DNA of 64,000 bases from an uncultured Alphaproteobacteria bacterium (GCA_951801825.1 CATOOF010000001.1:8936-72935); one strand, 5' to 3'. Shown: positions 7,297 to 51,922, numbered from the stretch's first letter. Numbers and translations are program-made. The notes: generated from the letters alone by a model not told the origin.

Positions 7297-7314
7297 TTTA
7301 TTGACCTTTCTTTA

Positions 7315-7935: not shown

Positions 7936-7973
7936 TTTATTTCACCTTACTCTTGCTGTTACAATTTACTTTA

Positions 7974-8684
7974 TTATTCCGCAACAGCTTCTGTTTCGGT
8001 TGCTTTTACTGCTTCGGCCATTTTTGTCGGCATCGGCAGGTCTTTGTGTTCTTTCTTTACGGCATCCGTTACCAATACGAATGTACCGTTTGCACCCGGA
8101 ACTGCGCCTTCGACAAAAATCAAATTGTCTGCCGCATCTGTGCCGAATACTTTCAGGTTCTGAACCGTTACGGTTTCATTTCCCATCTGACCAGCCATTT
8201 TTTTGCCTTTCAAGACACGACCCGGCCATTCGCGCATACCCGTACCACCAATGGAACGATGCGCTTTCAAAACACCGTGTGTCGCTTCTTTACCGCCGAA
8301 ATTGTGACGCTTCATCGCGCCCTGGAATCCCTTACCCTTGCTTGTCGCCTGAACGTCAACAAATTGACCGGCAACAAAATGTTCCGCCGACAATGCAGTA
8401 CCCGCCGGGATAATGCAATCGTCAGATACGCGGAATTCAACAACCTTGCGGAATGGTTTTACACCCGCCTTTTCTGCTGCGACCGCTTGGGGTTTTGCAA
8501 TATGTTTTGCCTTGGCCTCGCGCATACCTACGATATTTGCGACATAACCGTTCTTGTCCGTCGTACGATTTCCGATAACTGTACAATCGCCGACCGCCAG
8601 GACCGTCACCGCATGGGCCGCCCCCGCGTCGTCATACAGACGCGTCATTCCTATTTTTGTTGTAATTAATCCGCTACGTTTCAT
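7974..8684 (-). CDS. rplC: 50S ribosomal protein L3
   Basis: MKRSGLITTKIGMTRLYDD… L3 signature. Confidence 0.94.
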   Translation of the reverse strand: MKRSGLITTKIGMTRLYDDAGAAHAVTVLAVGDCTVIGNRTTDKNGYVANIVGMREAKAKHIAKPQAVAAEKAGVKPFRKVVEFRVSDDCIIPAGTALSAEHFVAGQFVDVQATSKGKGFQGAMKRHNFGGKEATHGVLKAHRSIGGTGMREWPGRVLKGKKMAGQMGNETVTVQNLKVFGTDAADNLIFVEGAVPGANGTFVLVTDAVKKEHKDLPMPTKMAEAVKATETEAVAE

Positions 8685-13778: not shown

Positions 13779-14552
13779 TTAGAAATCAATACCGAATTTA
13801 GCACCAAATGCAAATCCGTCCTGAACTTCCCATTTGCCTTCGGCTTCATGTGACATTTCCTTGCCGACATATGCACCGACAAACTTTGTTTCATCGATGT
13901 TATAGTTCACACCGACTTTACCCGTCCATACACCCGGTTTGTCATCCCAGTTATCAGTATTGGTTGTATATTCAACACCGGCCACCAGGTTCCATTCGCT
14001 GCTAATCAGCACCTGACCATCGAGCCCAAAGCGCAACTGATGCAGACCCTCGTCATCCCAGTTAAAGGATTCTGTGTTGGCATAGTCAAACGCGATATGT
14101 CCTGCAACCGTCCAGCCATTGTCAGACACATAACCCGCACGCGCCCCCAATGTCCAGATATAATCTGTCGTGTCTTCATCCAAGAATGATACATGATCAC
14201 CCCAAACCGGTGTTACCGCATAAGAACCGAACAGGTCGCCCTTCCAGTTACCCATATCAATTGCACGATAATTCAGACCAAAGGATGTCATCCCCCAGTC
14301 AGCCGTATCAAACCAGTCTGTCTGCGATACATTTGTGGCCAAAACCACCGCCAGGCGGTTTGTAACACCATATGCAAATTCTTCGTTCAAACCAACTGTT
14401 TTGGTATCATTTGTATCAGACCCAACCGTTGTAATACTGTAAAACCGACCCTGGTCCGGACGATACAATGGATTGCCATCAATAATATTTGCCGCATGTG
14501 CGCCAGAAACCGCAAACACAGCCATCAACGAAGTTAAAACTAATTTTTTCAT
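13779..14552 (-). CDS. Outer-membrane beta-barrel protein (porin-like), function unknown
   Basis: Signal peptide MKKLVLTSLMAVFAVSGAHA, alternating aromatic/hydrophilic beta-strands, and a C-terminal …FGAKFGIDF ending in Phe. Confidence 0.6.
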   Translation of the reverse strand: MKKLVLTSLMAVFAVSGAHAANIIDGNPLYRPDQGRFYSITTVGSDTNDTKTVGLNEEFAYGVTNRLAVVLATNVSQTDWFDTADWGMTSFGLNYRAIDMGNWKGDLFGSYAVTPVWGDHVSFLDEDTTDYIWTLGARAGYVSDNGWTVAGHIAFDYANTESFNWDDEGLHQLRFGLDGQVLISSEWNLVAGVEYTTNTDNWDDKPGVWTGKVGVNYNIDETKFVGAYVGKEMSHEAEGKWEVQDGFAFGAKFGIDF

Positions 14553-18104: not shown

Positions 18105-18908
18105 ATGAAAAAATTAACAACAGCGTTCGCTGCATTCATCCTGGCAACCGGGGCATGCCATGGGGCCGTGGACACCAACACATATTACTATGGCGGCATT
18201 TTTTCAGAATGCACATCAAAATACATAAATGTTTACGGCATAGAAAGCCTGAACTATCGTGACAACTACTGGCGCCTGGTAACAAAAAATGGCTGGGGCG
18301 GCAGCAACTGCGCATTAAATGTTACCGCAGCATGTCAGGCCACACTTATAAACGTAATGGGCCTGCAAGAATTTAACGACAACAGTATAATAGGCGTATT
18401 AAGCAATATAATATGCTCTTGCCAGTCCGACAGCGATTGCGTAAGTGGATTTGAGTGTCAAAAAAACATCAAGGCACCATATGGCCAGTGTATCCAAATT
18501 TCAAACTATTGCACAAACAACGACCAATGCGACAATGAAAAAGGCTATATATGCATAAGCGGAAAATGTACGCAAAAATGTTATATCGACACCAAACCAG
18601 AAAACATTTACTGGGAAACGGTAAAGAAAGATTCAACATATAACGTACCAATGATTGAAAAGGAAAGCATTTATACATGCGCATCTTCTGGCTGGACCCA
18701 GACAACCAATTATCGCTGTGCGGCACATTATTACGGCACCCCAACATCAGCCACATCAACCTGTAACAGATGTCCGGCCTATCCGGGGCCGGCAACTTCT
18801 GCGCCTGGCTCTACCCTGCAAACAGACTGCTATATACCCAAGGGTACGCAATACGGCGATCAGACAGGCAGTTTTACAATCGTAAACAATGACTGCCATC
18901 ATGATTAA
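18105..18908 (+). CDS. Secreted cysteine-rich protein, paralog family member A
   Basis: Signal peptide MKKLTTAFAAFILATGACHGA; more than 25 Cys. C-terminal module …CNRCPAYPG…TDCYIPKGTQYGDQTGSFTIVNNDC is shared with the 18939 and 37093 genes. Confidence 0.6.
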   Translation: MKKLTTAFAAFILATGACHGAVDTNTYYYGGIFSECTSKYINVYGIESLNYRDNYWRLVTKNGWGGSNCALNVTAACQATLINVMGLQEFNDNSIIGVLSNIICSCQSDSDCVSGFECQKNIKAPYGQCIQISNYCTNNDQCDNEKGYICISGKCTQKCYIDTKPENIYWETVKKDSTYNVPMIEKESIYTCASSGWTQTTNYRCAAHYYGTPTSATSTCNRCPAYPGPATSAPGSTLQTDCYIPKGTQYGDQTGSFTIVNNDCHHD

Positions 18909-18916: not shown

Positions 18917-18942
18917 CCGGGGACGATTGTCCCCGGCTTTAT
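18917..18942. terminator. bidirectional terminator between convergent Cys-rich genes
   Basis: CCGGGGAC-GATT-GTCCCCGG perfect hairpin with flanking A/T runs. Confidence 0.6.
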
Positions 18943-19445
18943 TCCGAATAATAGCATGGCGGCGAAAAGACAAAATCCCCCGACGTGTCTTTCCCAGATA
19001 CAGAATAACACTCTGTTATCTTTTTCGCACCCACGTCGCTGGTTCCTTCTTCATCTAAAGCGCCTACGAAATAAGCATTGCCGGGACATGCCTGACAATT
19101 TTTACCAGACCCGTAAAAACCCGCCTTGCATCTATATTGACAATACGTAACATTACAACGGGTTTCGTACGATGGCAGCCTTACAATACCGTTAGGGGCG
19201 CCCCACTCTGTCAGCCCCTTACATTCGTCATCACATTCCAGGTTTGGTTCAAAACCGCCGCCGCCATCAAAACACAAATCATTGCATCCGGCCGGACATT
19301 TCAAACATGATTCTGCCGTAACAGGCTCATATATGCCGGTTACCTCGTTCTTTTTATAACAGCATTGTACCAGCACCCCACCCAGCGCAACATTTTCCCA
19401 ACATAACGCCGCAACAACCACAACCCCCAGAACTTTCTTGATCAT
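18939..19445 (-). CDS. Secreted cysteine-rich protein, paralog family member B (start at MIKKVL; ORF extends to 19523)
   Basis: Signal peptide MIKKVLGVVVVAALCWENVALG. Module …CKAGFYGSGKNCQACPGNAYF…TECYSVSGKDTSGDFVFSPPC is parallel to member A. Confidence 0.55.
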   Translation of the reverse strand: MIKKVLGVVVVAALCWENVALGGVLVQCCYKKNEVTGIYEPVTAESCLKCPAGCNDLCFDGGGGFEPNLECDDECKGLTEWGAPNGIVRLPSYETRCNVTYCQYRCKAGFYGSGKNCQACPGNAYFVGALDEEGTSDVGAKKITECYSVSGKDTSGDFVFSPPCYYSE

Positions 19446-19585
19446 AAAACCACCGTTTGTTTTCGGCATTTTTTGGGGTTGACATATGGCGAAAATCTTG
19501 GATAAAATTGTATAAAAATACAATATAGGAAAACGGTCCTTTTAAATAGGCACCGTTTTTTTCATTCTAACAGATTGTTTGTGCA

Positions 19586-21368: not shown

Positions 21369-22376
21369 TTATATGTTCAGGCTGTTTATTTCATCAACCA
21401 GGTCATTCATATTTGCACGCAAATCTTCGGGGGCCGATGCCCACACCAGGTGTCGCATCATAAACTTGTGCACATCATCCATGGTCAGGTTTGGAATACC
21501 GGCGGCGGCGGCAACACGATGCCAACTGGCACGCGGATCGGTAAGCTTCATGCGACCACGCACAGAAAACACCCAGTTCCCATCCTGAGGCAAATCTTGT
21601 AACAACACCACCGCGGCATCTGACAATGGACGCGCGCCCCACATGTAATGATTAAAGTCCAAATCGGACCAGCGCATAGAAAACACCTGTGACTTTGGTG
21701 CGAATCCATAAATCAGCATTAAAAACGCGGCACGTAAAACCGGCGACGGCTCGGCATTGATGGCCGCAATCAGCCGAACAATTCCGGATTTAGTAAGCGG
21801 GCGAACGCGCCTGTGCTGAACCACGCGCTCCATTTTGGCGACCGGATTTTCCTTTGCATAGCCAGTCTCGATGGCATATTTAAAAATACTCTGGACCAGT
21901 TCCTGCATACGTCGTGCAATTGCCGGCCCGGGAATATTTTCAATCACGGCACAAACGTCATCATACGATATATCCGAAACATATTTATCCCGCAACCCGA
22001 CCAAATGCCGCTCAATACCGCGACGCAACTTTACCATTCCGTCTTCACTGCGACGAACGCGTGCCGCCAGATACATATCCGTCAGCCGTCCCATCGTTAT
22101 TTTACTGCGGCGCACCTTTGGTTTTTCTGCGGCACGCATTAATACCTCTGATACGCGACCGCGGGCCTGCTCAATATCCACATCAGGATAATTGCCAATA
22201 ATGATGCGCCGGTCATGCCCGCCTATTCTTTTTCGAACAAAAAAAGTTTTTATGCCGCGACTGGTAACATACATCCGCAACCGTGGTTCCGATATATCCT
22301 GGACAACATCGAACCCCTTGTTCGGCGCCGGCAGATTATCCAGGATATAAGGGTTAAAGAAGAATTGATGCGCCAC
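21369..22376 (-). CDS. Tyrosine-recombinase (P4-type integrase)-like protein, probably degenerate
   Basis: N-terminus …NLPAPNKGFDVVQDISEPRLRMYVTSRGIKTFFVRKRIGGHDRRIIIGNYPDVDIEQARGRV… matches the arm-binding DUF4102 domain of P4-like integrases. The C-terminal region lacks a recognisable HxxR…Y catalytic box, and at 335 aa it is shorter than typical family members. Confidence 0.5.
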   Translation of the reverse strand: MAHQFFFNPYILDNLPAPNKGFDVVQDISEPRLRMYVTSRGIKTFFVRKRIGGHDRRIIIGNYPDVDIEQARGRVSEVLMRAAEKPKVRRSKITMGRLTDMYLAARVRRSEDGMVKLRRGIERHLVGLRDKYVSDISYDDVCAVIENIPGPAIARRMQELVQSIFKYAIETGYAKENPVAKMERVVQHRRVRPLTKSGIVRLIAAINAEPSPVLRAAFLMLIYGFAPKSQVFSMRWSDLDFNHYMWGARPLSDAAVVLLQDLPQDGNWVFSVRGRMKLTDPRASWHRVAAAAGIPNLTMDDVHKFMMRHLVWASAPEDLRANMNDLVDEINSLNI

Positions 22377-25577: not shown

Positions 25578-26150
25578 ATGAAACTTGTTGAATCAATTCT
25601 TAAAAAATCTGAACATCCGGCCTATGCATGGATAGTTTTTGTTTTAACAGTATGCGAATCGATATTCCTGTTTGTCCCGCCAGAGGTTTTTATGACCCCG
25701 CCTATTATTGCGAACCGCCGACGTGCGATTCCGATTACGATTGCGGCGGCGGCCGGTTCGCTGGTCGGCGGCGCAATTGCATATTTGATTGGATACTGGC
25801 TGTTTGACTCGGTCGGACTGTGGCTGATACAAAATTTTGCCACGATGGAAAAATTTGAAATGGCCCAGGCGTTATTTATAAAGCATGGTCTGTTTATAAT
25901 TGTCCTGACCGCGTTTACCCCTATTCCGTACAAGCTGATGGCAATATGCGCAGGATTCATGGGATTCCCGGCGGCATTGTTCTTAGGCGTATCGGCGGTA
26001 TTCCGCACGGCGCGTTTTGCCATCGTCGCAGCGTTACTGTGGCGTTTCCAGGAACAGGCAAACACCATCGTAAAAAAATATTTCTGGCCACTTACCATGT
26101 TTGCAATTATTGCGGCAGGACTGGGCATCGGCCTGATGATGCTGTTATAG
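25578..26150 (+). CDS. YqaA/DedA-superfamily (VTT-domain) inner-membrane protein
   Basis: 190 aa with 4-5 TM helices and an …FVPPEVFMTPP… motif. Confidence 0.55.
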   Translation: MKLVESILKKSEHPAYAWIVFVLTVCESIFLFVPPEVFMTPPIIANRRRAIPITIAAAAGSLVGGAIAYLIGYWLFDSVGLWLIQNFATMEKFEMAQALFIKHGLFIIVLTAFTPIPYKLMAICAGFMGFPAALFLGVSAVFRTARFAIVAALLWRFQEQANTIVKKYFWPLTMFAIIAAGLGIGLMMLL

Positions 26151-26171
26151 CCCCGGGCACGTGTCCCATAC

Positions 26172-26181
26172 TGGGGGGGGG
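26172..26181. repeat. homopolymeric G10 tract (intergenic, between convergent genes)
   Basis: tgggggggggg read directly; 22 nt after the stop of the 25578-26150 gene. Confidence 0.9.
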
Positions 26182-26321
26182 CGTCATTAATACAGCCATA
26201 CATTTGCTATATGTCTACATAACAGCATGCGTAAATAAAAATACAGCGACATTGTGTCGCTGTATTTTCTTCTCATAAAAGGCATGCGCCTTTCTCTCCC
26301 TATCATCCCTGTCGGGAAACT

Positions 26322-27560
26322 TTATTCAACCCATATGGTCGCGGTTGCAGTACCCGTGGTTCCCACCGGAATAACCCCCAGTTTTGCCACACCAATCGCA
26401 TCACGTGTTGCAGATACACCCGATACATTCACAGATGTACCACTTACCGTGGCCGATACACCATTTGAACCGCTGGCCGTATACGTTGTATTATTATCAG
26501 TTAACTCGATTGTTGCGGCGGTGGCCTGGTTCGCCGTAAAAGTACCCTTAACAGCCCCCCCCTGTTTAATAGTAAGCGTGGCGTTATTTACCGTCGGAAC
26601 ATTTATCGTTCCCTTTGTGACGGAAATTTTACCGTCTGTCTGGCTAACATTCGTAACGACATTACCCGTCGCGCTAGACTCTGCAACATCCAGTGCATTT
26701 ATCGCATTTGTAATATCACCCGGGGTCGCCGCGGTAACACCCTTTGTAACTGTAAGCGCACCGTTATTTGCCGTAATTGCCGAAACAACGTTTCCGGCAC
26801 CGGTTGTTGTCGCCGTTGTAACTGTATTTGTATCTGTTCCAGATACTGTTATAACCCCAGATGCATCCTTGGTCACAGTAACACTGCCGGAACCTTTAAT
26901 ATTACCATTACTGCCCGCGGTCAATGTATCCTGCTTGCCCGTGGCATAATTATTGTATTGGGTTACTTTGTCCGCCGTAATACCGGAATTAAGAGCGGCC
27001 TGCTGAGCAGAACTCATCGTGGTCCATGCACCATTGGGACCACCCATCTGGTAATTTGCAGTGGATTTAACCTGATACACATTCTTGGCGGCCGCAACGG
27101 CGGCATCCCCCATTGCGGCGGCAATTTCCTCTGCCACCTTTACAGAAGGAATACGCGCATCATTGTCTGTATGCAGGGTGTCATATGTATTAATCGTATC
27201 TATGTTAATCTTTGTCGGGGCAATTGCGGCAGATGCAGAAATATCCGCATTTACAATCGTGCCATCTGCTATATCCCCAGATGTCACAGAACTTTTACCC
27301 GCCAATGTACCTAATGCCGGCTTGTTCTTTATCTGTCCCATGCCGGATGTTGCGTTCCAGTCGGGCTGAACCTGTGCCGCTGGAATATCTGGCTTGTTCG
27401 TCAAATCATTATAAGAGCCAGACGTCGCCACCGGTGCCAAGTTACCTTCTGTGCCCAAACGTTTGTTTAACAGCGTGGTTGATACAACCTCTGCACGGGC
27501 CGGTATCACAGACACAATTGCGATAAAAGAAACTGCAAAAATACCAGCTATATTCCTCAT
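26322..27560 (-). CDS. Secreted surface-fibre protein with phage-tail-fibre-type repeats
   Basis: Signal peptide, then …SGSYNDLTNKPDIPAAQVQPDWNATSGMGQIKNKP… Thr/Gly/Ala-rich beta-rich body. Shares the …NDARIPSVKVAEEIA… motif with the neighbouring gene. Confidence 0.55.
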   Translation of the reverse strand: MRNIAGIFAVSFIAIVSVIPARAEVVSTTLLNKRLGTEGNLAPVATSGSYNDLTNKPDIPAAQVQPDWNATSGMGQIKNKPALGTLAGKSSVTSGDIADGTIVNADISASAAIAPTKINIDTINTYDTLHTDNDARIPSVKVAEEIAAAMGDAAVAAAKNVYQVKSTANYQMGGPNGAWTTMSSAQQAALNSGITADKVTQYNNYATGKQDTLTAGSNGNIKGSGSVTVTKDASGVITVSGTDTNTVTTATTTGAGNVVSAITANNGALTVTKGVTAATPGDITNAINALDVAESSATGNVVTNVSQTDGKISVTKGTINVPTVNNATLTIKQGGAVKGTFTANQATAATIELTDNNTTYTASGSNGVSATVSGTSVNVSGVSATRDAIGVAKLGVIPVGTTGTATATIWVE

Positions 27561-27672
27561 AACCTAAAAACTCTCTACCCGTCTTATATTATCACAAATC
27601 CCCACTTCAACACAAGGTCATATATGGCGTAACCATATCTTTTTTGAATTACGCCATATATTCCGCCCTATG

Positions 27673-28914
27673 TTAACGTCCAATCGTTTCCCAAACATAT
27701 GCGCCGTTGCGGAACAATAACGCACAGCCCGCTTCAGAAGTTTCACAATTCGTACCGGGTTTTGGAATTGCATTATTTGCCTTGGCCAGTGCGCTGTCCG
27801 CCGTATCCTGGGCATCTGACGCCGCAGTATTTGCCTGGGTGGCCGCGGCTTGCGCCGTGGTGGCCTTGCCGCCTACTTCCTTTATCGCGGCGACAACGGT
27901 TGTCGCGGTTGTTCCCATATTTGTCGCAGAAACATCTCCAACCTCTGCATCATAGGTTGCGGTTGGTAACTTAGTTCCCAGTCCAGATGTTGTGCTTTCA
28001 ATCGCCGTCTTGTTTGCATTCGCCGTTGCGGCCGCGGCCTGGACCGCCGCATCATTTGATGTTTTATATGTGTCTAAGGCCGCCGCGGCATCGGTTCCCG
28101 CCTTTTTGGCCGTAGCCACCGCCGCATCTGTCTCTGTTTTTGTATATGCGTCACCAATATTATAGCCCGCCAATGTAGTGGCTTTATCCGCCTTGCCTTC
28201 AACCGCGGTGTTTATTGCATCAACCGCAACCTTAATTTTATTATCAACACTGCCATCAACAGTATCTGCCGCATTCAAGGTTGCAATCGCATCGGTGTTT
28301 GTCTTGATTGCATCAATTTTTTCCTTTGTTGCACCAGAGACCATAACCGCACTGTTATTAATGGCAGTAATCGCGGACGTATTTTCTGCAATGTCCGCCT
28401 TTAGTTCTGTATCATCATATGTCGCGGCTGTTTTTGCATCATCAATTAACTCAACAACCGTCTTGTCTGCGGGTACGGTACCGATTGTCTTATTAATTGC
28501 ATTATCTGCCGCGGTACGCGCCGCTATCTCGTCATCAATTCTTGTGCCCAATGCGGTATCCGCAGATGTACGTGCCGCTGATTCTGCATCCATCTCTGCC
28601 TTGGTAAGACCTTTGTTACTGGCCGTCAATGGCGTAACAAAATCTTCCTTTTTTCTTGAATAGATATTTGCAGCCGCCGTTACCGCCGCATCAGCCGATG
28701 CACTGGCAATGTCTTCGGCAACTTTTACTGTTGGAATACGTTCATCATTATCAGCATTGCTGGTATTATAAGAAGACATGTTGTCAATTTTCAACGTATC
28801 CTGTTTTGTTTTGGCAATATCATCAACATACGTTGTTGATGCAATATCCGCACGTGCCGCACCAACCGCCAAAAACGCCGCCAGAGAAGCTACCAAAAAT
28901 CCTGCTCTTTTCAT
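27673..28914 (-). CDS. Secreted Ala/Thr-rich coiled-coil surface protein (paralog)
   Basis: Signal peptide MKRAGFLVASLAAFLAVGAARA, then DIASTTYVDDIA…, then …NDERIPTVKVAEDIA…; a long coiled-coil; C-terminal IPKPGTNCETSEAGCALLFRNGAYVWETIGR. Confidence 0.55.
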   Translation of the reverse strand: MKRAGFLVASLAAFLAVGAARADIASTTYVDDIAKTKQDTLKIDNMSSYNTSNADNDERIPTVKVAEDIASASADAAVTAAANIYSRKKEDFVTPLTASNKGLTKAEMDAESAARTSADTALGTRIDDEIAARTAADNAINKTIGTVPADKTVVELIDDAKTAATYDDTELKADIAENTSAITAINNSAVMVSGATKEKIDAIKTNTDAIATLNAADTVDGSVDNKIKVAVDAINTAVEGKADKATTLAGYNIGDAYTKTETDAAVATAKKAGTDAAAALDTYKTSNDAAVQAAAATANANKTAIESTTSGLGTKLPTATYDAEVGDVSATNMGTTATTVVAAIKEVGGKATTAQAAATQANTAASDAQDTADSALAKANNAIPKPGTNCETSEAGCALLFRNGAYVWETIGR

Positions 28915-29015
28915 AATATATGATACCTAAATAATTTTATCCGCTATGTGATGCGTTGCACGCATCTACTGTACCCGGCGGTCGTTTATCCAACCACCGG
29001 GATTTTTTTTATAAC

Positions 29016-29831
29016 TTAAACGCCCGGCGTCGGTGCTGGTGCTGGGTCTGCACGTTCAATTTGTTCCCATTTCAAGGTCGCAACATCGCCAAGGGTCTTG
29101 ATGGTTAAAACATATGTTCCATCTTCGCCTGTTGTCGTAACCTTTTTAATGGATTCGTTCAGCGCCTGTGTCGCATCAGCCTGGGCTTTTTCAACCGCCG
29201 TGTTCAATGCGGTATCTGCCGCTTTATACGCAGTGTCCAATGCACCAATCGCATCAGCGTTAGCTTTTTCTGCTGCTGTTGCACGGTCCGTTTCAACCTT
29301 TACCGCGTTGGCAATATCTGTTGCAACCTGTGTTTTATCCGCCTTGTCAGAAACAGCTGTATCAATAGCGTCTTTGATTGCACCCTCTTCCGCAGTAATA
29401 GAGTTTGTAATAATTGTTTTAACCTGGTCCTGTGTTACTTTGCTAGTATTCAATTCATTGATTGCCTCGGTCAGTGTTTTATTCGTTGTCCCCAGTTCGG
29501 CTGTTCCAACCGTCCCCTCCAACGCACTAATATCATCCTCGGCCGTATATAAGCGCGCATCAATATCCTTTAAATCCGCCGCCGAAGCCTTGGAATCCAA
29601 TGCCTTGGATATTTCCGATGTATCGCTGTTCAGTTCTTCTGTAATCCGATTGGTAATTGTTGTGTTAATACCGTCGCGAAATTCCGTAACAGTTGATTCC
29701 AACGTTGTGACGCTACCCTGTACTTTGCCAATTTCTTGATCAACATAGGCCCTGGATGTAACGGCCGCATTTGCATCGACTGCAACCAAGCCCAACAGAA
29801 CTGTAAAAATACCAGTTGTAAGTTTTTTCAT
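29016..29831 (-). CDS. Secreted coiled-coil surface protein (paralog)
   Basis: Signal peptide; N-terminal AAVTSRAYVDQEI motif; heptad-rich Thr/Ala/Asp body; Pro-rich C-terminus. Confidence 0.5.
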   Translation of the reverse strand: MKKLTTGIFTVLLGLVAVDANAAVTSRAYVDQEIGKVQGSVTTLESTVTEFRDGINTTITNRITEELNSDTSEISKALDSKASAADLKDIDARLYTAEDDISALEGTVGTAELGTTNKTLTEAINELNTSKVTQDQVKTIITNSITAEEGAIKDAIDTAVSDKADKTQVATDIANAVKVETDRATAAEKANADAIGALDTAYKAADTALNTAVEKAQADATQALNESIKKVTTTGEDGTYVLTIKTLGDVATLKWEQIERADPAPAPTPGV

Positions 29832-29868
29832 AATTTTTTCCTTTCCTTAAACTTTATTTATCTGAAGA

Positions 29869-30693
29869 TTAATCTGCCGGAGTAACCGTGCTTTCCAGCG
29901 GCGCCGTAACATCCAGCCACATCAGGCTATTACCGGCTGAATCGACCGACAGAACACAGCGTCCCGACTCTGCGGCACAGGACCCTGTCGGTTTCGGTAT
30001 CGCCAGGTCAATAATTTTAGCGTTTGCTTCTTCCTTTGTATAAACATCGGCTACGTTGGCCTTTTTATCCAGTTCAGTTTTTAACGTGCCAGATTCAACA
30101 GATTTATCAATTGCGTCGGTCACAACATCGCCATTGCTGACAATTGTGGTAATAATTTCTTTTACGGATTCATTTTGTTCCAATGCATTCGTAATCTTTT
30201 CCGTAACGGTTGCATTTGTTACCAAATCCGCCGCCGCCACAGTACCCGCGACATAATTACCGGTTGCATCAATTGTTGCGATATTGCCGGCCTTGATTGC
30301 TTCGCCCGTCAGCTTGTCTGCCTTGCCTGCGACATCCGTTTCCAGTTGTCCAACAGTTGTATTCAAATTATTAACAGTTGTGCTAATCTGGTTTACAGTC
30401 GATGTATCCGCCTTTGTGTCCAGTGCCTGGTCAATGGCTGTTTTCAGTTCACTGTTTTCAGACTGCAGTTCGTTTGTAATATTTGTTACGATAACATCCT
30501 GCAACTGCTCTGTTTTAGTATAATTGTTTTCAATTGTTGTCTGCAGTTCCTTAACATCTGTCGAAACCTTGTTATCAACATATTGTTTGCTTGCGATTTG
30601 AGGCGCCGCCGATGCACTGGCAATCCCAGCACTTACCATTATAGCCGCTGCAAATCCGGAAAAAGCGACATTCTTTACTTTCATTTTTTTCAC
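29869..30693 (-). CDS. Secreted coiled-coil surface protein (paralog)
   Basis: Signal peptide; …QIASKQYVDNKV… motif; DVYTK-type repeats; C-terminal …IPKPTGSCAAESGRCVLSVDSAGNSLMWLDV…. Confidence 0.5.
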   Translation of the reverse strand: MKKMKVKNVAFSGFAAAIMVSAGIASASAAPQIASKQYVDNKVSTDVKELQTTIENNYTKTEQLQDVIVTNITNELQSENSELKTAIDQALDTKADTSTVNQISTTVNNLNTTVGQLETDVAGKADKLTGEAIKAGNIATIDATGNYVAGTVAAADLVTNATVTEKITNALEQNESVKEIITTIVSNGDVVTDAIDKSVESGTLKTELDKKANVADVYTKEEANAKIIDLAIPKPTGSCAAESGRCVLSVDSAGNSLMWLDVTAPLESTVTPAD

Positions 30694-30741
30694 TTCCTTT
30701 TTTTACACTTGGCCCAAGGGCCGTTTATAATGATTTGACAG

Positions 30742-32592
30742 TTACTCTGTAACCACTTCAAACCAGCCCTTTTGACCATTGCTAATCGCCAGTACGAAAT
30801 CACCTTCTTCTGGTGCGCCTTCGACAGTAACCGCCTGGTCCGCCTTTGTCAGCGATGCCTGAACATCCGCCGCCAATTTCGTTTTTGCAATTGCCGCATC
30901 ATCTGCAACATCTGCATTTGTAATTGTGTCTTTTGCCGCCAATGTGCCCAAATCTTCTGTTTTGGCATATCCGCTTAAGTCTATATTGCCGGCCTCTACA
31001 ACCGCATCCTCAAGCGCTTTTTTAGTTGCAAACTTTTCATCAGCCGCTGATTTCGTATAAACATTTTCCGCATCAGCCTTTAACGCCAGCGACGTTGTTG
31101 CCGCATCAGCCGCCGTCTTGGCCGCATCGGCCTTATCGGATGCCGTTCCTGCCGCCGTCAATGCGGACGCCGCCACACCAGATGCCGCATCGGCCGCTGT
31201 TTTTGCGGCCCCGGCTGTTGATACCGCCAACGCCGCATCGGCAACCGCGCCGCTAACATCGACCGCCATTTCATCAACATCAGTCGCCAGTGTATTTACA
31301 CGCCCCTCCAGAGCGGTTACCGTTGCGCCTTTTGCATAATCGGCCAAATCGGTAACATTTGCCTTTTTCTCAAGCGCAGTGTTAACATCAGCCGTTTTGG
31401 CATATTCGGATAAAGCCGCACTCATGTCGCCTGCAACAATATCGGCAACTTTCTCGTCAACCTGGGTCTTTGTGTAAACATCTGCAGATTTTGCATAATC
31501 AGCCAGAGATTGGTGCTCTGTCAGATACTTTGCATCTGACTGGCCCTTTGTGTAAACATCCGAAACATTCGCCTTGTCCGCCAGCGCCGTATTAACCCAT
31601 GCCTTAGGTGCAAGATCCGCAGTTGCGTTTGTAATGCTTTCTTCTACCGCCGTTTTCGTGGCATACGCCGCCAGCTGTGTCTTGTCCGCCTTGTCAGACA
31701 ATGCATTGGCCATTTCGGTCGATGTAACATGCCCCGCATCCGCAATTGCTGTTTTAATCGCCTGATTCATTTGCTCTGTTGTGGAATACTTAGCGGAATC
31801 AAGGCCCTCGCCCGGGTCACCCTTGTCACCCTTTTCACCTTTCTCGCCCGCCGGGCCCTGGGGACCGGTTAAGCCTTGGGGCCCCTGGGGGCCGACCAGC
31901 TCACTAATTGCAATCAAATCCTGCCACTGGGTATCGCCGACATAGCGCCACTGAATATGGGTTGCATTCTTAGAAATCTCAACCTCGCGGCCATTTGCAC
32001 CAACAATGGTTTCCAGCCCGTCTTTCAGCGCATCTATATTCAGGAAAATTTCATCATCTTCTATTTCAATATAGCCATCGCCCGTCAACACATTTTGCTT
32101 GTCTGCAAAAAAACCGTCTATTTCATCATTTGTGTACAAAGCACCAACCTGGGATTCAAGTTCGCCAACACGGTCTGTCAATGCGCCGGCAATTCCTGGA
32201 TCCATGGAACCACCGCCACTGTTGCTAACGCCGCTGCCCGGTTTTTGATTTTTGATAGAACTGCCCCCACTGACAGATGTGCCGCCACCCAAATATTTGC
32301 CAATAGACAAACGTGGCGCGGTTGCAACACGGCCCGTCGTTGCCGTACCGCGATTTGAAGACCCAGACGCAGACGCCCCGCCAGCCGACGGCGCCACGCG
32401 CATTGATCCCGCGCGCACTGCGTTTATGGCCCCACTGGGGGCGCCGCCACCCGCGGCCGCAGATGATGCACTGGAATACGTTCCTGCCCCCCCTAACGAC
32501 CGCACCGACGCGGCCCCAAAAGCGCCCGATATCGCCGATGTGCACAAAACACAAACAACTGCCAATCGTGATATTTGAACTCTGTTTTTCAT
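30742..32592 (-). CDS. Secreted collagen-like-repeat surface-fibre protein (start at MKNRVQ; ORF extends to 32631)
   Basis: Signal peptide; Gly/Ser-rich linker; …IQWRYVGDTQWQDLIAISELVGPQGPQGLTGPQGPAGEKGEKGDKGDPGEG (10 GXY triplets); then about 300 aa of KADKTQL/DVYTK-type repeats. Confidence 0.6.
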   Translation of the reverse strand: MKNRVQISRLAVVCVLCTSAISGAFGAASVRSLGGAGTYSSASSAAAGGGAPSGAINAVRAGSMRVAPSAGGASASGSSNRGTATTGRVATAPRLSIGKYLGGGTSVSGGSSIKNQKPGSGVSNSGGGSMDPGIAGALTDRVGELESQVGALYTNDEIDGFFADKQNVLTGDGYIEIEDDEIFLNIDALKDGLETIVGANGREVEISKNATHIQWRYVGDTQWQDLIAISELVGPQGPQGLTGPQGPAGEKGEKGDKGDPGEGLDSAKYSTTEQMNQAIKTAIADAGHVTSTEMANALSDKADKTQLAAYATKTAVEESITNATADLAPKAWVNTALADKANVSDVYTKGQSDAKYLTEHQSLADYAKSADVYTKTQVDEKVADIVAGDMSAALSEYAKTADVNTALEKKANVTDLADYAKGATVTALEGRVNTLATDVDEMAVDVSGAVADAALAVSTAGAAKTAADAASGVAASALTAAGTASDKADAAKTAADAATTSLALKADAENVYTKSAADEKFATKKALEDAVVEAGNIDLSGYAKTEDLGTLAAKDTITNADVADDAAIAKTKLAADVQASLTKADQAVTVEGAPEEGDFVLAISNGQKGWFEVVTE

Positions 32593-32652
32593 AACTCTCT
32601 CTATACCTGTCAATGATATCAAATTACGCAAACCGCAACAACATTTTTCTGG

Positions 32653-33387
32653 TTAAAATTCATACCTGATACCAAAAGATACCGAATTATCCAAAATCAT
32701 GCCTGTTTTGCTTTTAAAGCCATATACATTGTCATCGGTGTCTTGGAAGCCCAGCTTTAATTCAGCCCCGGTCATACCGGCCAAACGATACCGCAAATCC
32801 AGCACCAGATTTTCATCCAGCTGATGCGTCCACCCCAGCATCAGTCCCGCCATCGGCGACAGTGCCGTTTTAGTCTTGTCATAGCCGTTGAAATAATCAC
32901 CGCTTATCTTATAATTGGACAACGCCGCACCAACACCCGCGCCGACATACAGCCCGTTCGTAAAGTCATAATATCCGTTCAGCATAACATACGGAATCGA
33001 CAGCGAAAATTTTGCAACCGCATCTTCGTCGCTGAAATAGCCCAAATATCCGCCTTCCAGTTCCGCGCGCCAGAAATAGTTAATTTTCTTACCCGCCGCA
33101 ATCGAGCCGCCGAACACAGGCTCAAACGAATATTTATCCTCGCTATGGCTTTCATCCGCGCTGAACCCCTCAGAAACACTGTATTCGTTCTTGAAATTCA
33201 GCAGGCTCAGTTCTGCACGCCCAGTTATATACCAGCCTGTTTTTGCTTTGTCCTTATAATTATATGTAACATCGTATCCACCGCGGCCGTCTCTTGAAAT
33301 ATGACTGGGCTGTGCGGTGCGCACCGCCGCAAAAGACGGCACGACAAATAATCCCATCAAAACACTTACTGACACTAATTTTTTCAT
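32653..33387 (-). CDS. Outer-membrane beta-barrel protein (OmpA-N/Opa-like small barrel)
   Basis: Start at MKKLVSVSVLMGLFVVPSFA signal; alternating beta-strand pattern; C-terminal …VSFGIRYEF. Confidence 0.6.
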   Translation of the reverse strand: MKKLVSVSVLMGLFVVPSFAAVRTAQPSHISRDGRGGYDVTYNYKDKAKTGWYITGRAELSLLNFKNEYSVSEGFSADESHSEDKYSFEPVFGGSIAAGKKINYFWRAELEGGYLGYFSDEDAVAKFSLSIPYVMLNGYYDFTNGLYVGAGVGAALSNYKISGDYFNGYDKTKTALSPMAGLMLGWTHQLDENLVLDLRYRLAGMTGAELKLGFQDTDDNVYGFKSKTGMILDNSVSFGIRYEF

Positions 33388-33524
33388 GAAAATACCCCTC
33401 CATTTATTCCTTAAGTATATCATAAAAAAGGATATGCTCCAACAACAAAAAACAGATATTGACCGTTTTCTCTTTTTCTGCTACGTTTTTAGCATACTAA
33501 TTGTACACGGAAAGAGGTAACAAC

Positions 33525-37092: not shown

Positions 37093-37839
37093 ATGGCGGC
37101 ACGACACAGATTTTATTTACTTATTGCGGGATTGGCCTCTTGCGCCATGATGAATAAAAGCCACGGAAAAGACATAGGCTACACAATCGGCGAAGTATTG
37201 TATTCCAGCCCATACTGCGCATCCCCGGCATCGGGGGATGGCGATACCCCATGCCAAGTTTGCGTCCCATCCAGAATAGCCTATGATAAATGCAACTATA
37301 GCACCAGTTGCATTGACAACTGGATAAACGACGAAAACATTTGCATTGATAACACATGCAGCAGCTACAACGGCACCAGCAACATACATTATGGGGGCGC
37401 ATACGGAAAAAATTCTGGCGGCGGATTTTATATTTGCGACGACTATAGCGGGTGGAAATATTCCGCAACCCAGCCTGACACAAATCCGGACAATTGCTCT
37501 AACCAATATGACGGCAACCACGGTCATCTTATAAATTGTTGTGATTTTGATCCGGATGCAGGCATCGGCGGTTCATGGTGCCCATCAGGATACGATCGTG
37601 AATACTGTGACAGCGGCTATTACGGCGGATTCAATAACTGCGCCCAATGCCCCAGTGGTCCAAACTATGTTACCGGCCCAATCAACGATTACTCCCCCCA
37701 GGGACCAATATCTGGAAAATCAAGCGAATCCGGAAACTATTCAAAAAACAAATGCTATATTCCGCCACTGGGCGGCTCTGAACACTACATGGACAGCACG
37801 GGCCAATATGTATTTACCAGCAACTGTTATTGGAGCTGA
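37093..37839 (+). CDS. Cysteine-rich lipoprotein, paralog family member C
   Basis: Lipobox-like LIAGLASC; module …CDSGYYGGFNNCAQCPSGPNYV…KNKCYIPPLGGSEHYMDSTGQYVFTSNC parallels members A and B. Confidence 0.55.
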   Translation: MAARHRFYLLIAGLASCAMMNKSHGKDIGYTIGEVLYSSPYCASPASGDGDTPCQVCVPSRIAYDKCNYSTSCIDNWINDENICIDNTCSSYNGTSNIHYGGAYGKNSGGGFYICDDYSGWKYSATQPDTNPDNCSNQYDGNHGHLINCCDFDPDAGIGGSWCPSGYDREYCDSGYYGGFNNCAQCPSGPNYVTGPINDYSPQGPISGKSSESGNYSKNKCYIPPLGGSEHYMDSTGQYVFTSNCYWS

Positions 37840-51457: not shown

Positions 51458-51922
51458 CTATTCGCCGTATGTTATATAAACAGTGTTTTTGCCGTTTAAA
51501 TCGTTACAGTTGCCAGCGGCGCCGCCCTGGGTTCCGTTTGACATCTGGTAACCAATCGAATCAGACCATGCCTTGGTCACAAAATATTTACAGTCACCCT
51601 CCGACAGGCCCGTCACAGAAACAATGAACTGGTGCGAATTTGCCGGATTGACATTCAGCTCATACGATCCGCCATACGGGTTTTTATTAGACATCCCGAT
51701 TGCACCAAAAATTGTGGCGTTGTTTATATGCGAAAAATCGTCATATTCGCCCAACAACTGGCGCACGCCTGTTACCATCTGGATAACATCATCGTTGACA
51801 CTGTTGCGCTTTTGCGTGCGCATCGCGGTTGAAATCATGCCGATTGCGCCGACGGTAATAACCCCCATAATCGCCAGCACCCCCAGCATCTCTATCATAG
51901 AACGTCCGGATTCCTGATTCAT
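51458..51922 (-). CDS. Type IV pilin/pseudopilin-like protein
   Basis: Prepilin N-terminus SGRSMIEMLGVLAIMGVITV (Gly then Glu at +5); C-terminal Cys pair. Confidence 0.65.
   Translation of the reverse strand: MNQESGRSMIEMLGVLAIMGVITVGAIGMISTAMRTQKRNSVNDDVIQMVTGVRQLLGEYDDFSHINNATIFGAIGMSNKNPYGGSYELNVNPANSHQFIVSVTGLSEGDCKYFVTKAWSDSIGYQMSNGTQGGAAGNCNDLNGKNTVYITYGE

What the first reader, a model, noticed from the sequence alone, without database searches (positions are those of the whole stretch)
26322..32631. Tandem cluster of five secreted Ala/Thr-rich coiled-coil 'fibre' proteins sharing N- and C-terminal modules: a possible undescribed surface-fibril or adhesin system
Five consecutive minus-strand genes all start with Sec signal peptides. 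They have Ala/Thr/Asp/Lys-rich heptad-like bodies with recurring KADKT / DVYTK / NALE-type repeats, short intergenic gaps (38-112 nt) and shared terminal modules.

- Three share a post-signal [S/T]-x-x-YVD-[D/N/Q] motif (STTYVDDIA, SRAYVDQEI, SKQYVDNKV).
- Two share a two-Cys C-terminal module: IPKP-(G/T)(T/G)-x-C-x(2)-E-x-G-x-C-x-L-x(7-8)-W (IPKPGTNCETSEAGCALLF… and IPKPTGSCAAESGRCVLSV…).
- Two share …ND(A/E)RIP(S/T)VKVAE(E/D)IA.
- One carries phage-tail-fibre repeats and one a collagen triple-helix tract.
- None has an autotransporter beta-barrel, LPXTG or obvious lipobox, so the anchoring mechanism is unclear.

The locus lies between a DedA-like gene and an OMP/pal/ftsEX block. It looks like a diversifying family of trimeric surface fibres, perhaps domesticated from phage receptor-binding proteins.
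Basis: partly seen in the sequence, partly recalled or inferred. Interest (0 to 1): 0.8.

Follow-up and report, generated by a model that had tools for sequence, protein, structure and literature searches.

The report
Secreted phage-like fibre gene cluster
An uncultured, genome-reduced gut bacterium (Candidatus Enterousia group) has a conserved but fast-evolving row of genes for exported fibrous proteins, probably three-chain and built from phage tail-fibre parts, which most likely form surface fibres for attaching to other cells, though their location is unproven.

Summary
Five co-directional minus-strand genes (26322-32592) encode Ala/Thr-rich fibrous proteins with Sec-type leaders and shared end modules. 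None reaches threshold in Pfam or NCBIfam, and none has a PDB relative.

New findings:
- The window comes from gut Alphaproteobacteria of order Rs-D84 (Candidatus Enterousia), which have genomes under about 1 Mb and are thought to depend on a partner.
- The locus sits in the same place in about 35 species: Pal | small OMP beta-barrel gene, then 3-7 fibre genes | DedA-RbfA-LepA.
- The fibre genes diverge far faster than their flanks and swap modules. One relative joins an E-type front to a C-type rear.
- Several modules also occur in real phage tail-fibre proteins.
- Four of the five (B-E) end in a Pro-linker plus a Trp-containing beta-hairpin. This resembles the T4 foldon in layout, but no homology was detectable. 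A ends only in a short ...IWVE.
- The first gene type carries a highly conserved, predicted-disordered N-terminal module. It defines 341 protein clusters and always lies at the N-terminus.

Best reading (about 0.55): trimeric surface fibres held by conserved N-termini. The closest analogue is the Bdellovibrio MAT fibres, but this is not a member of that family. Surface exposure, the route across the outer membrane and the ligands are all unshown.

The parts
32653..33387 (-). Small outer-membrane beta-barrel protein gene (244 aa, Sec leader). It lies directly upstream of the fibre genes, on the same strand, in every related genome. It is a candidate operon leader and a candidate anchor partner.
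   Evidence: Pfam OMP_b-brl, E = 5.6e-7, 30.3 bits against a cutoff of 28.7. Conserved adjacency in about 30 loci. A 60-nt gap separates it from E, with no terminator-like site on this strand.
30742..32592 (-). Fibre gene E (616 aa from ATG 32592). Order of parts: leader, conserved N-terminal module, helix, small alpha/beta domain, collagen tract, segmented helices and YTK/KADK repeats, C-terminal hairpin.
   Evidence: AF2: residues 9-130 pLDDT <50; 175-233 pLDDT 82-89; strands 599-604 and 607-612. PHROG tail-fibre/tail-collar hits between 2e-9 and 1e-5 around residues 200-390.
32239..32514 (-). E-type N-terminal module (residues 27-118). Motifs: ASSVRSLGGAGTY ... RAGSxRV ... PRLSIGKYLGGxTSVSGGSS. 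It is the proposed cell-proximal anchor.
   Evidence: Sixteen invariant columns across 20 divergent sequences. It is the most conserved part of the protein, 64-75% identity against under 25% in the distal half. There are 341 representative clusters at E <= 1e-3, always at the protein's N-terminus, on proteins of 119-1095 aa.
31894..32079 (-). Pre-collagen alpha/beta domain of E (residues 172-233; ...GREVEISKNATHIQWRYVGDTQWQDLIAISEL).
   Evidence: AF2 pLDDT 82-89. phrog_19976 'tail assembly protein' 2.3e-9 and phrog_3449 'tail collar' 2.8e-6. Best BFVD match is an uncharacterised Pseudomonas phage protein, 49% identity over 45 columns, E = 0.065, not significant.
31804..31893 (-). Collagen-like tract of E, ten G-X-Y triplets (GPQGPQGLTGPQGPAGEKGEKGDKGDPGEG).
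   Evidence: Pfam Collagen E = 1.9e-4, below cutoff. Tract length varies between orthologues. 26 of 134 E-type representatives have at least 5 triplets.
30745..30816 (-). C-terminal cap of E, Cys-less form (APEEGDFVLAISNGQKGWFEVVTE).
   Evidence: AF2 beta-hairpin 599-604/607-612. Cys-less HMM from non-window sequences, E = 5e-3. Most full-length E-type representatives end in the same pattern; 87 of 134 have a Trp near the C-terminus.
29869..30684 (-). Fibre gene D (271 aa from ATG 30684). It has a leader, QIASKQYVD, helical segments and a two-Cys C-terminal cap (IPKPTGSC...RCVLSV...MWLDVT, nt 29905-30000). It is the most conserved of the five between close relatives.
   Evidence: (79-84% identity to orthologues).
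29016..29831 (-). Fibre gene C (271 aa). It has a leader, AVTSRAYVD, helical segments and a Cys-less cap (GEDGTYVLTIKTLGDVATLKWEQIER, nt 29052-29129).
   Evidence: Its residues 72-267 are 74% identical to the C-terminal 190 aa of P0123, a protein whose front is E-type. This shows module exchange between paralogues.
27673..28914 (-). Fibre gene B (413 aa). It has a leader, DIASTTYVD, the ND-x-RIP-x-VKVAE module (nt 28681-28770), segmented helices, an alanine-zipper-like last helix and a two-Cys cap (IPKPGTNC...GCALLF..YVWETIGR, nt 27676-27768).
   Evidence: AF2: helix 333-382, short helix 388-392 between the two Cys, strands 397-402 and 405-410, pLDDT about 87. Sub-threshold Alanine_zipper/Ala_zip_lipo hits, E = 0.036 and 0.012. 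30-aa modules 62-77% identical to IMG/VR phage proteins.
26322..27560 (-). Fibre gene A (412 aa), Thr/Gly/Val/Asn-rich and not a coiled coil. It has a leader, EVVSTTLLN, a phage tail-fibre repeat unit (nt 27309-27440), the ND-x-RIP-x-VKVAE module (nt 27096-27185) and ends ...ATIWVE. Orthologues end C-x4-C-x2-F-VDIWVE.
   Evidence: phrog_17509 8e-6; Ralstonia phage phiRSL1 tail fibre, 53% over 81 aa, E = 3e-12.

Best explanation
**What it is.** The five genes, probably transcribed together with the OMP beta-barrel gene upstream, encode Sec-exported fibre proteins that are probably homotrimeric. They are assembled from interchangeable modules of phage tail-fibre origin.

**Common plan (B, C, D and E).**
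- A leader peptide.
- A conserved N-terminal element that holds the fibre to the cell. In A-D this is a short IAS-x-x-YVD motif at the mature N-terminus. In E it is a ~90-residue SVRSLGG...RLSIGKYLGG module.
- A variable shaft of segmented alpha-helical coiled coil, with or without a collagen triple helix and phage-type repeats.
- A small C-terminal cap: a Pro-containing linker, an optional disulfide loop and a Trp-containing beta-hairpin.

A is the exception. Its shaft is phage-type repeats rather than coiled coil, its N motif is degenerate, and it ends only in a short ...IWVE.

**Proposed mechanism.** By analogy with the foldon of T4 fibritin, the cap would bring the three chains into register once the C-terminus has left the Sec channel. 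The fibres then project from the outer surface of a genome-reduced, partner-dependent gut bacterium. There they mediate contact with other cells or surfaces. Their distal parts are reshuffled quickly by recombination within the locus and with phages.

**Shown.**
- The architecture and the shared modules.
- Conservation of the locus across the order.
- Rapid divergence and module exchange.
- Sharing of modules with phage proteins.
- The predicted hairpin.

**Inferred.**
- Trimer state.
- Leader cleavage.
- The operon.
- Which end is anchored.
- Surface exposure.
- Adhesive function.
For: - **Export.** All five proteins carry Sec-type leaders. The conserved Cys pair in the cap fits an oxidising, extracytoplasmic location.
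- **Trimer.**
  - E has ten G-X-Y triplets.
  - Helical segments show heptad-type periodicity (AF2).
  - Alanine-zipper hits just below threshold fall on the helix before B's cap.
  - The C-terminal hairpin is predicted at pLDDT about 80-87 in both modelled proteins.
  - The same end pattern recurs across the E-type family; 87 of 134 representatives have a Trp near the C-terminus.
- **Conserved end versus variable end.** E-type N-terminal identity is 64-75%, against under 25% and many indels distally. The N module is always N-terminal on proteins of 119-1095 aa.
- **Fixed locus.** The order Pal | OMP, fibres | DedA-RbfA-LepA holds in about 35 species-level genomes, with 3-7 fibre genes of 159-1023 aa.
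- **Fast evolution.** In the closest relatives, flanking proteins are mostly 90-97% identical (78-82% for OMP, Pal and FtsX). The fibres are 43-84% identical, often with partial coverage.
- **Module exchange.** P0123 joins an E-type front to a C-type rear that is 74% identical to C.
- **Phage modules.**
- **Not a prophage.** The flanks are housekeeping genes and synteny is conserved.
- **Expression hint.** Codon adaptation of B, C and D is about 0.70, like FabF, EF-P and aldolase. Typical housekeeping genes score 0.52-0.60.
- **Lifestyle.** Rs-D84/Enterousia genomes are under about 1 Mb. They lack the TCA cycle, respiration and standard transporters, and are proposed to depend on a partner (PMC12306168).
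- **Precedent.** Bdellovibrio displays phage-fibre-like, leader-bearing trimers on its surface (PMC10769870).
Against: - No way across the outer membrane was identified. There is no autotransporter barrel, no two-partner or usher gene in the locus, and no lipobox.
- A barrel as small as the neighbouring 244-aa OMP is unlikely to pass a folded trimer.
- The distal ends are 16-30-residue caps, not lectin-like or other binding domains. Adhesion would therefore have to come from the shaft.
- The trimer state rests on inference. The models are monomers with pTM 0.31 and mean pLDDT 63-68.
- The foldon comparison is by pattern and topology only. Profile searches did not hit fibritin.
- The proposed E anchor is predicted disordered.
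- No expression or localisation data exist.
- Signal peptides were judged by eye.
Confidence: 0.55

Rival explanations
1. The proteins are periplasmic envelope proteins. Trimeric coiled coils would stay between the membranes and tie the outer membrane or OMP to peptidoglycan or the inner membrane. That would replace Braun's lipoprotein, or form a periplasmic skeleton.
For: - The locus sits inside an envelope neighbourhood: TolB, Pal, FtsEX, an OMP and, further off, AsmA.
- There is a Sec leader but no recognisable outer-membrane export device.
- Weak alanine-zipper (Lpp/OprI-like) hits.
- The sequence right at the mature N-terminus is conserved. In Alphaproteobacteria, L,D-transpeptidases link the N-termini of OMPs to meso-DAP (review PMC12729407, citing Godessart 2021).
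Against: - Lengths range from 159 to 1023 aa, and gene number from 3 to 7, between related species. This is hard to reconcile with a fixed periplasmic spacing.
- Sequence turnover is rapid and modules are exchanged with phage receptor-binding proteins. That is what exposed proteins show, not internal structural ones.
- There is no lipobox and no C-terminal Lys.
- The mature N-termini start DI, AI, EI, AV or AA. From memory, the Brucella PG-linked OMPs start Ala-Asp.
Confidence: 0.15
2. The fibres form a protective coat or decoy layer. They would be abundant surface fibres whose job is shielding against phage, host immunity or predators, or acting as phage-receptor decoys, rather than specific adhesion.
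For: - The tips lack binding domains.
- Codon adaptation is high for B-D.
- Hypervariability and similarity to phage modules would also fit an arms race with phages.
Against: - Nothing separates this from adhesion with the present data. The two functions could coexist.
- No S-layer-type lattice domain or SLH-like anchor was found.
Confidence: 0.15
3. The proteins are released into the medium, for example through a type II system, and act as soluble trimeric factors. They would not be cell-bound fibres.
For: - Sec leaders with no obvious anchor.
- A pilin/pseudopilin-like gene exists elsewhere in the window, though only weakly supported (N_methyl E = 0.006, below the Pfam cutoff).
- From memory, the Legionella collagen-like protein Lcl is a Sec/T2SS substrate.
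Against: - The strongly conserved N-terminal elements, set against variable distal parts, suggest retention on a conserved cellular partner.
- No T2SS genes were seen in the window or the loci examined.
Confidence: 0.08
4. The locus is a decaying prophage, or a gene-transfer-agent or tailocin fibre module, rather than a set of cellular genes.
For: PHROG and phage matches.
Against: - Every protein has a Sec leader.
- No other phage structural genes are nearby.
- The flanks are housekeeping genes.
- Position and orientation are the same in about 35 species.
- GC content matches the surroundings.
Confidence: 0.02

Closest known systems
Bdellovibrio bacteriovorus MAT (mosaic adhesive trimer) fibres (Caulton et al. 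2024, PMC10769870)
   Same: - Leader-bearing cellular proteins related to phage tail fibres.
- Multi-gene families.
- One conserved end for retention and one diversified end.
- The outer-membrane route and the anchor are unknown in both.
- The organism lives by contact with other cells (shown for Bdellovibrio, proposed for Enterousia).
   Different: [quoted passage not shown]
- Here the shafts are mostly alpha-helical or collagen. The tips are 16-30-residue hairpin caps. No S74 or other domain is found. The N-terminal elements are a ~10-residue motif or a predicted-disordered module.
- The genes are tandem in one fixed locus.
Phage T4 fibritin (wac) with its C-terminal foldon (from memory of the literature)
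   Same: - A segmented trimeric coiled coil that ends in a Pro-containing linker plus a Trp-containing beta-hairpin.
- The N-terminus is the attached end.
- Motif-level resemblance: compare EAPRDGQAYVRKDGEWVLL with DAPKDGKDYVAVVNNGIQTWVEV and APEEGDFVLAISNGQKGWFEVV.
   Different: - No detectable sequence homology. There is no Fibritin_C Pfam hit. Profiles of the module do not hit any of the foldon-containing PDB chains. The foldon scores E = 6 in a database of roughly a thousand ORF fragments.
- The hairpin is 3-5 residues longer, and many copies add a disulfide loop.
- These proteins are Sec-exported cellular proteins.
Trimeric autotransporter adhesins (YadA, BadA; type Vc secretion)
   Same: Sec leader, mosaic trimeric coiled-coil fibres, rapid modular evolution, common in Alphaproteobacteria.
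   Different: There is no C-terminal 4-strand membrane anchor (no YadA_anchor hit even at E <= 1). No YadA head or stalk motifs were found. The conserved retention element appears to be N-terminal, not C-terminal.
Lpp/OprI alanine-zipper lipoproteins
   Same: A short Ala-rich helix of the alanine-zipper (Lpp/OprI) type. B residues 340-382 give sub-threshold hits.
   Different: No lipobox and no C-terminal Lys. These proteins are 5-10 times longer and highly variable.
Bacterial collagen-like surface proteins (Streptococcus Scl, Bacillus BclA, Legionella Lcl; from memory)
   Same: E combines a leader, a collagen triple-helix tract and a separate trimerisation element.
   Different: Only E has the tract, and it is short (10 triplets). 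There is no LPXTG, no C1q-like or other known C-terminal domain, and the anchor module is different.

Membership tests
Trimeric autotransporter adhesin (type Vc) | C-terminal YadA-like membrane anchor (4 beta-strands per chain, Pfam YadA_anchor) | tested here: not met
   No such hit for any of the five at E <= 1. AF2 shows only a two-strand hairpin of about 14 residues at the C-terminus.
Trimeric autotransporter adhesin (type Vc) | Sec leader plus trimeric coiled-coil stalk | tested here: inconclusive
   Leaders are present by inspection. Helical segments with heptad periodicity are present. The trimer state was not modelled.
Bdellovibrio MAT fibres | Conserved beta-rich domain of about 130 aa immediately after the signal peptide (PMC10769870) | tested here: not met
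   B, C and D have only a ~10-residue conserved motif before the helices. E has a conserved ~90-residue module, but it is Gly/Ser-rich and predicted disordered. No MAT N-domain sequence was available for direct comparison.
Bdellovibrio MAT fibres | Beta-prism/beta-helix trimeric shaft with an adhesive tip domain or an S74 peptidase-chaperone domain | tested here: not met
   No Peptidase_S74 or tip-domain hit. No PDB sequence hit to the solved MAT tips. The models are mainly helical.
Fibritin / foldon | Sequence membership in Fibritin_C (foldon) | tested here: not met
   No Pfam hit. Profiles A2 and A5 do not retrieve any foldon chain from the PDB at E <= 10. The foldon scores E = 6 against the module HMM.
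Fibritin / foldon | Topology: coiled coil, then a Pro-containing linker, then a C-terminal beta-hairpin with a conserved Trp | tested here: met
   AF2 models of B (helix 333-382, IPKP, strands 397-402/405-410) and E (strands 599-604/607-612). W is invariant in alignment A2 and at least 90% conserved in A5 and A7. Trimer formation was not testable.
Lpp/OprI alanine-zipper lipoprotein | Lipobox Cys and family score above cutoff | tested here: not met
   Ala_zip_lipo scores 16.1 bits against a cutoff of 43, and Alanine_zipper 14.8 against 23.1. No lipobox is present in any leader (sequence).
Phage tail fibre / receptor-binding protein | Shares tail-fibre sequence modules | tested here: met
   - A residues 19-99 against the phiRSL1 tail fibre, E = 3e-12.
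- PHROG tail-fibre families for E down to 5e-9.
- B modules 62-77% identical to IMG/VR proteins of 447-2267 aa.
Phage tail fibre / receptor-binding protein | Encoded within a phage structural gene block; no secretion leader | tested here: not met
   The flanks are housekeeping genes, synteny is conserved across about 35 species, and every copy has a leader.
Bacterial collagen-like proteins | Uninterrupted G-X-Y repeat tract | tested here: met
   E only: ten triplets at residues 234-263. The Pfam Collagen hit is below the gathering score (21.6 against 27.2 bits).

The most novel reading that the evidence does not exclude
The OMP-led operon would be a new, autotransporter-independent system for putting phage-derived trimeric fibres on a Gram-negative surface.
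- The conserved N-terminal elements dock onto, or thread through, the co-encoded small beta-barrel or another envelope partner. These elements are SVRSLGG...RLSIGKYLGG in the first gene and IAS-x-x-YVD in the others.
- A minimal foldon-like cap drives trimerisation outside the cytoplasm.
- Genome-reduced Rs-D84 bacteria use the interchangeable fibres to latch onto a partner cell, as epibionts do.

This would give the first molecular handle on the lifestyle of a widespread uncultured human and animal gut lineage.
Probability: 0.2. Interest if true: 0.8.

Novelty: new variant of a known kind. Interest (0 to 1): 0.6.

Why it matters
Rs-D84/Enterousia bacteria are common in human, chicken and ruminant guts. 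They have genomes under 1 Mb, lack respiration and standard transporters, and have never been cultured. How they obtain nutrients or contact partners is unknown (PMC12306168).

**A candidate interaction system.**
- The locus is present in every genome examined.
- It takes up about 6 kb, under 1% of a genome this small.
- It evolves fast and borrows phage receptor-binding modules.
- These features make it a strong candidate for the cell-cell interaction apparatus of the lineage, and a practical marker for strain typing.

**Wider points.**
- It extends the idea, so far shown in Bdellovibrio, that bacteria reuse phage fibre parts as their own surface fibres.
- It does so with a different architecture: helical/collagen shafts, minimal hairpin caps and new N-terminal anchors.
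- The hairpin cap, with or without its disulfide, could be a compact trimerisation tag for protein engineering if it works like the foldon.
- The unanswered question of how a Sec-exported trimer would cross or attach to the outer membrane without a type V anchor is worth solving in its own right.

Tried and rejected
- **Trimer modelling.** I submitted three linked copies of D's C-terminus. Only monomers were modelled.
- **Fold searches.**
  - B model against PDB: nothing.
  - E model against BFVD: best E = 0.065, a 45-column match to an uncharacterised phage protein.
  - E model against PDB: nothing.
  - Long helices plus tiny domains give Foldseek little to work with.
- **PDB sequence and profile searches.** D, E and two profiles of the C-terminal module gave no meaningful hits and no foldon. 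Homology to the foldon is therefore dropped and only the analogy is kept.
- **Viral scan with the broad family alignment.** It failed because no stretch was conserved enough. Single-protein scans worked.
- **B against cultured phage genomes.** No match.
- **Diversity-generating retroelement or cassette repeats.** No long direct or inverted DNA repeats occur in 26000-33500. Rejected.
- **Lipoprotein anchoring of E.** The conserved CVLC in its leader fails the lipobox rule and is absent from several orthologues. Rejected.
- **N-terminal peptidoglycan linkage as in Brucella OMPs.** The mature N-termini start DI, AI, EI, AV or AA, whereas the Brucella OMPs start Ala-Asp (recalled from memory). Kept only as part of the periplasmic rival.
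- **Cluster-member look-up for names.** All members are unnamed.
- **Pfam on ten long E-type relatives.** No tip domains.

Full report
**1. What is there**

Five ORFs lie head to tail on the minus strand:

| Gene | Coordinates | Length |
|---|---|---|
| A | 26322-27560 | 412 aa |
| B | 27673-28914 | 413 aa |
| C | 29016-29831 | 271 aa |
| D | 29869-30693 | 274 aa as listed |
| E | 30742-32631 | 629 aa as listed |

- Comparison with orthologues and the upstream sequence puts E's start at ATG 32592 (MKNRVQIS..., 616 aa). It puts D's start at ATG 30684 (MKVKN..., 271 aa).
- The gaps between genes are 37-112 nt. No terminator-like site lies between them on the coding strand.
- A sixth co-directional gene, a 244-aa OMP beta-barrel protein (32653-33387; Pfam OMP_b-brl 30.3 bits, cutoff 28.7), ends 60 nt before E.
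- Ala+Thr is 26-37% in the five proteins and at most 24% in every other ORF of the window.
- All five begin with a basic residue or two, a hydrophobic stretch and a small-x-small site. This was read by eye; no predictor was available.

**2. Are the shared modules real?**

- **N motif.** An HMM of leader plus IAS-x-x-YVD, built from 70 outside proteins, finds C (6e-21), B (1e-18) and D (6e-7). It finds A weakly (4e-4; A has EVVSTTLLN).
- **C module.** HMMs built only from non-window sequences were used.
  - The two-Cys form (A-I-P-K/A-P-x-x-x-C-x(2-6)-C-V-L-x(6-9)-W-E-x-I) finds B (3e-14) and D (7e-7).
  - A Cys-less form (...DG-x-Y-V-L-T-x(7-10)-W-E-x-I) finds C (2e-9), D (3e-3) and E (5e-3).
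  - Intermediates such as P0042 and P0118 join the two forms.
- **Four of five share the cap.** B, C, D and E end in variants of one module.
- **A's end.** It is ...ATIWVE. Orthologues have C-x4-C-x2-F-VDIWVE.
- **A and B** share a 56-residue stretch at 55% identity, E = 2e-8, around ND-x-RIP-x-VKVAE.
- **E** has ten uninterrupted G-X-Y triplets.
- **Coiled coil.** Heptad-type periodicity is segmental in B-E and absent in A. 'Coiled coil' therefore describes parts of four proteins, not all of five.

**3. Known families**

- Nothing reaches threshold in Pfam or NCBIfam. The nearest hits are Collagen (E), Alanine_zipper/Ala_zip_lipo (B) and generic coiled-coil noise.
- PHROGs gives tail-fibre, tail-collar and minor-tail hits for E (2e-9 to 1e-5) and weaker ones for A.
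- No PDB chain is related by sequence, either to D and E or to profiles of the C module.

**4. Organism and conservation**

- Relatives of B occur only in metagenomes and MAGs.
- A scan of one genome per species returned 35 loci. All are from uncultured gut Alphaproteobacteria, many named Candidatus Enterousia or, in older records, 'uncultured Rickettsiales'.
- According to PMC12306168, this is GTDB order Rs-D84.
  - Genomes are mostly under 1 Mb.
  - The TCA cycle, respiration and standard sugar, amino-acid and peptide transporters are missing.
  - A partner-dependent lifestyle has been proposed.
- In every locus with enough flanking DNA the order is the same: TolB ... FtsX-FtsE-Pal (one strand) | OMP beta-barrel followed by 3-7 Ala/Thr-rich genes (other strand) | DedA, RbfA, LepA.
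- Fibre gene lengths range from 159 to 1023 aa.
- Within the 64-kb window and the ±10-kb flanks, the family occurs only at this locus.

**5. Evolutionary behaviour**

- Against the closest relatives (L001, L005, L007-L009), most flanking proteins are 90-97% identical, and OMP, Pal and FtsX are 78-82%. A-E are 43-84% identical, often over only part of their length.
- In distant species the flanks stay at 51-91%, while the fibres keep only their ends.
- In E-type proteins the conserved part is the N-terminus. Identity is 75% at residues 21-40 and 64-68% at 81-120, against under 25% with many indels beyond residue 280.
- Modules move between paralogues.
  - P0123 aligns with E over its first ~340 residues.
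  - P0123 then continues with a 190-residue tail that is 74% identical to C residues 72-267, cap included.
  - The GTVPxxKTVV...ATYDDT module of B sits in the C-position gene of L001/L005.
- No long DNA repeats suggest a retroelement or a silent-cassette system.

**6. Link to phages**

- A's residues 19-99 match the annotated tail fibre of Ralstonia phage phiRSL1 (53%, E = 3e-12). They also match a baseplate/tail-pin protein of a Synechococcus phage.
- The same SGSYNDL-x-(D/N)KP...QVQ-x-DW...IKNKP unit is repeated many times in a 1668-aa IMG/VR protein.
- Thirty-residue modules of B are 62-77% identical to IMG/VR proteins of 447 and 2267 aa that lack leaders.
- The proteins are therefore mosaics of phage fibre parts.
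- They are not a prophage. Every copy has a leader, the neighbours are housekeeping genes, the position is fixed across the order, and GC content is unremarkable.

**7. Structure**

AlphaFold2 could be run only on monomers.

- **B** (43-row alignment; mean pLDDT 68, pTM 0.31).
  - It is a chain of helices with breaks.
  - After the last long helix (333-382) come IPKPG, a short helix between the two Cys, and a beta-hairpin at 397-402/405-410 (block pLDDT 87).
- **E** (41 rows; mean pLDDT 63).
  - Residues 9-130 are disordered, despite being the best conserved part.
  - A helix spans 132-167, and a small alpha/beta domain spans 175-233 (pLDDT 82-89).
  - The collagen tract has low confidence, as expected for one chain.
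  - Many helices follow, including 413-535, and a C-terminal hairpin at 599-604/607-612.
- **Fold searches.** Foldseek found nothing significant in the PDB or BFVD.

The end of the proteins reads coiled coil, Pro linker, then a Trp-containing hairpin. That layout matches the T4 fibritin foldon, and some copies read much like it. An example is DAPKDGKDYVAVVNNGIQTWVEV, against EAPRDGQAYVRKDGEWVLL recalled from memory.

Sequence searches give no support for homology. I therefore treat this as a functional analogy only.

**8. The E-type N-terminal module**

- It starts right after the predicted cleavage site: A-S-S-V-R-S-L-G-G-A-G-T-Y, then R-A-G-S-x-R-V, then P-R-L-S-I-G-K-Y-L-G-G-x-T-S-V-S-G-G-S-S.
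- Sixteen columns are invariant across 20 divergent sequences.
- An exhaustive profile search of 1.84 billion representatives found 341 clusters (248 at E <= 1e-10).
  - In all 150 listed, the match begins within the first 17 residues of the protein.
  - The proteins are 119-1095 aa long.
- Ten long members have no Pfam domain.
- 26 of 134 members have collagen tracts.
- 87 of 134 have a Trp within the last 22 residues, and most full-length ones end in the hydrophobic-x-L...(N/D)G...W-x-x-hydrophobic cap. A few carry the two-Cys form.
- A strongly conserved segment predicted as disordered in isolation is what one expects of a piece that folds against a partner.

**9. Interpretation**

The best-supported picture is a set of Sec-exported trimeric fibres.

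- One end is conserved. The mature N-terminus is the most likely point of attachment to the cell.
- The shaft is variable and recombining.
- The C-terminal cap probably sets the three chains in register.

The case for exposure outside the cell rests on four lines of evidence:
- hypervariability;
- exchange of modules with phage receptor-binding proteins;
- the Cys pair in the cap;
- codon adaptation like that of highly expressed genes (B, C and D about 0.70, against 0.52-0.60 for typical housekeeping genes).

The organism's proposed dependence on partner cells makes attachment the most natural function. The Bdellovibrio MAT fibres provide a worked precedent.

Weak points:
- No route across the outer membrane is evident.
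- The adjacent barrel looks too small to be a channel, so at most it is an anchor.
- The tips have no binding domain.
- Oligomeric state and location are untested.

The main rival is a periplasmic structural role. The envelope-gene neighbourhood favours it, but the sixfold length variation and rapid turnover argue against it.

**10. Comparison and novelty**

| Known system | Verdict | Reason |
|---|---|---|
| Trimeric autotransporter | Not a member | No anchor |
| MAT fibres | Not a member | No beta-rich N domain, no beta-prism shaft, no tips or S74 domain |
| Fibritin | Not a detectable homologue | No sequence support |
| Lpp-type lipoprotein | Not a member | No lipobox; below cutoff |
| Prophage | Not one | Housekeeping flanks, fixed position, leaders |

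The locus works most like MAT fibres or fibritin-type whiskers. I rate it a new variant of a known kind: cellular fibres built from phage fibre parts. It has two new anchor modules, a new minimal cap, and a lineage-wide fixed locus led by an OMP gene.

Interest is moderate to high. It offers a concrete, testable handle on an uncultured gut lineage and poses an open secretion and anchoring problem, but function and location are still inferred.

Noticed in passing
window 18105-18908 (+), 18939-19523 (-), 37093-37839 (+); also 58830-60341 (-): Three small secreted proteins are very rich in cysteine (17-20 Cys in 194-267 aa). They share a C-terminal C-x-x-C...YYG...C-x-x-CP...C-Y-I-P...G-x-F-x-F...C-(Y/H) module; 18939 against 37093 gives E = 1.5e-5. 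None has a Pfam hit. A fourth Cys-rich secreted protein (503 aa, 28 Cys) is also unassigned. They may form a second family of surface or secreted proteins in this reduced genome.
   Followed up: partly
window 51458-51922 (-) and 62166-63179 (-): There is a pilin/pseudopilin-like gene, with a weak N-terminal methylation motif (E = 0.006, below the Pfam cutoff). A gene whose N-terminus looks like DprA (by eye only) lies further along. Together they hint at a competence or type IV pilus-like system. This could bear on how exported proteins leave the cell.
   Followed up: partly
window 21369-22376 (-): A 335-aa protein with only the N-terminal and middle domains of a phage-type integrase (Arm-DNA-bind_3, Phage_int_M) sits beside LepA. 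It holds the same position in all relatives examined (L001, L047, L048). It therefore looks like a fixed cellular gene rather than a mobile element.
   Followed up: partly
window 13779-14552 (-): A second leader-bearing 257-aa protein ends in ...FGAKFGIDF, which looks like an outer-membrane barrel, but it has no Pfam hit at E <= 0.01. It would serve as a control in any OMP-fibre docking test.
   Followed up: no
L009 (WSMU01000003.1) 4421-5650 and 7251-8480: In this MAG contig the last fibre gene (409 aa) and the DedA gene appear twice in tandem. This is either a local duplication of the locus end or an assembly artefact.
   Followed up: no
L027 (CAVGNU010000018.1): A complete Rs-D84-type locus (Pal, OMP, five fibre genes) sits in a bin labelled Bacteroides fragilis. 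This is almost certainly a binning contaminant in the public record.
   Followed up: no
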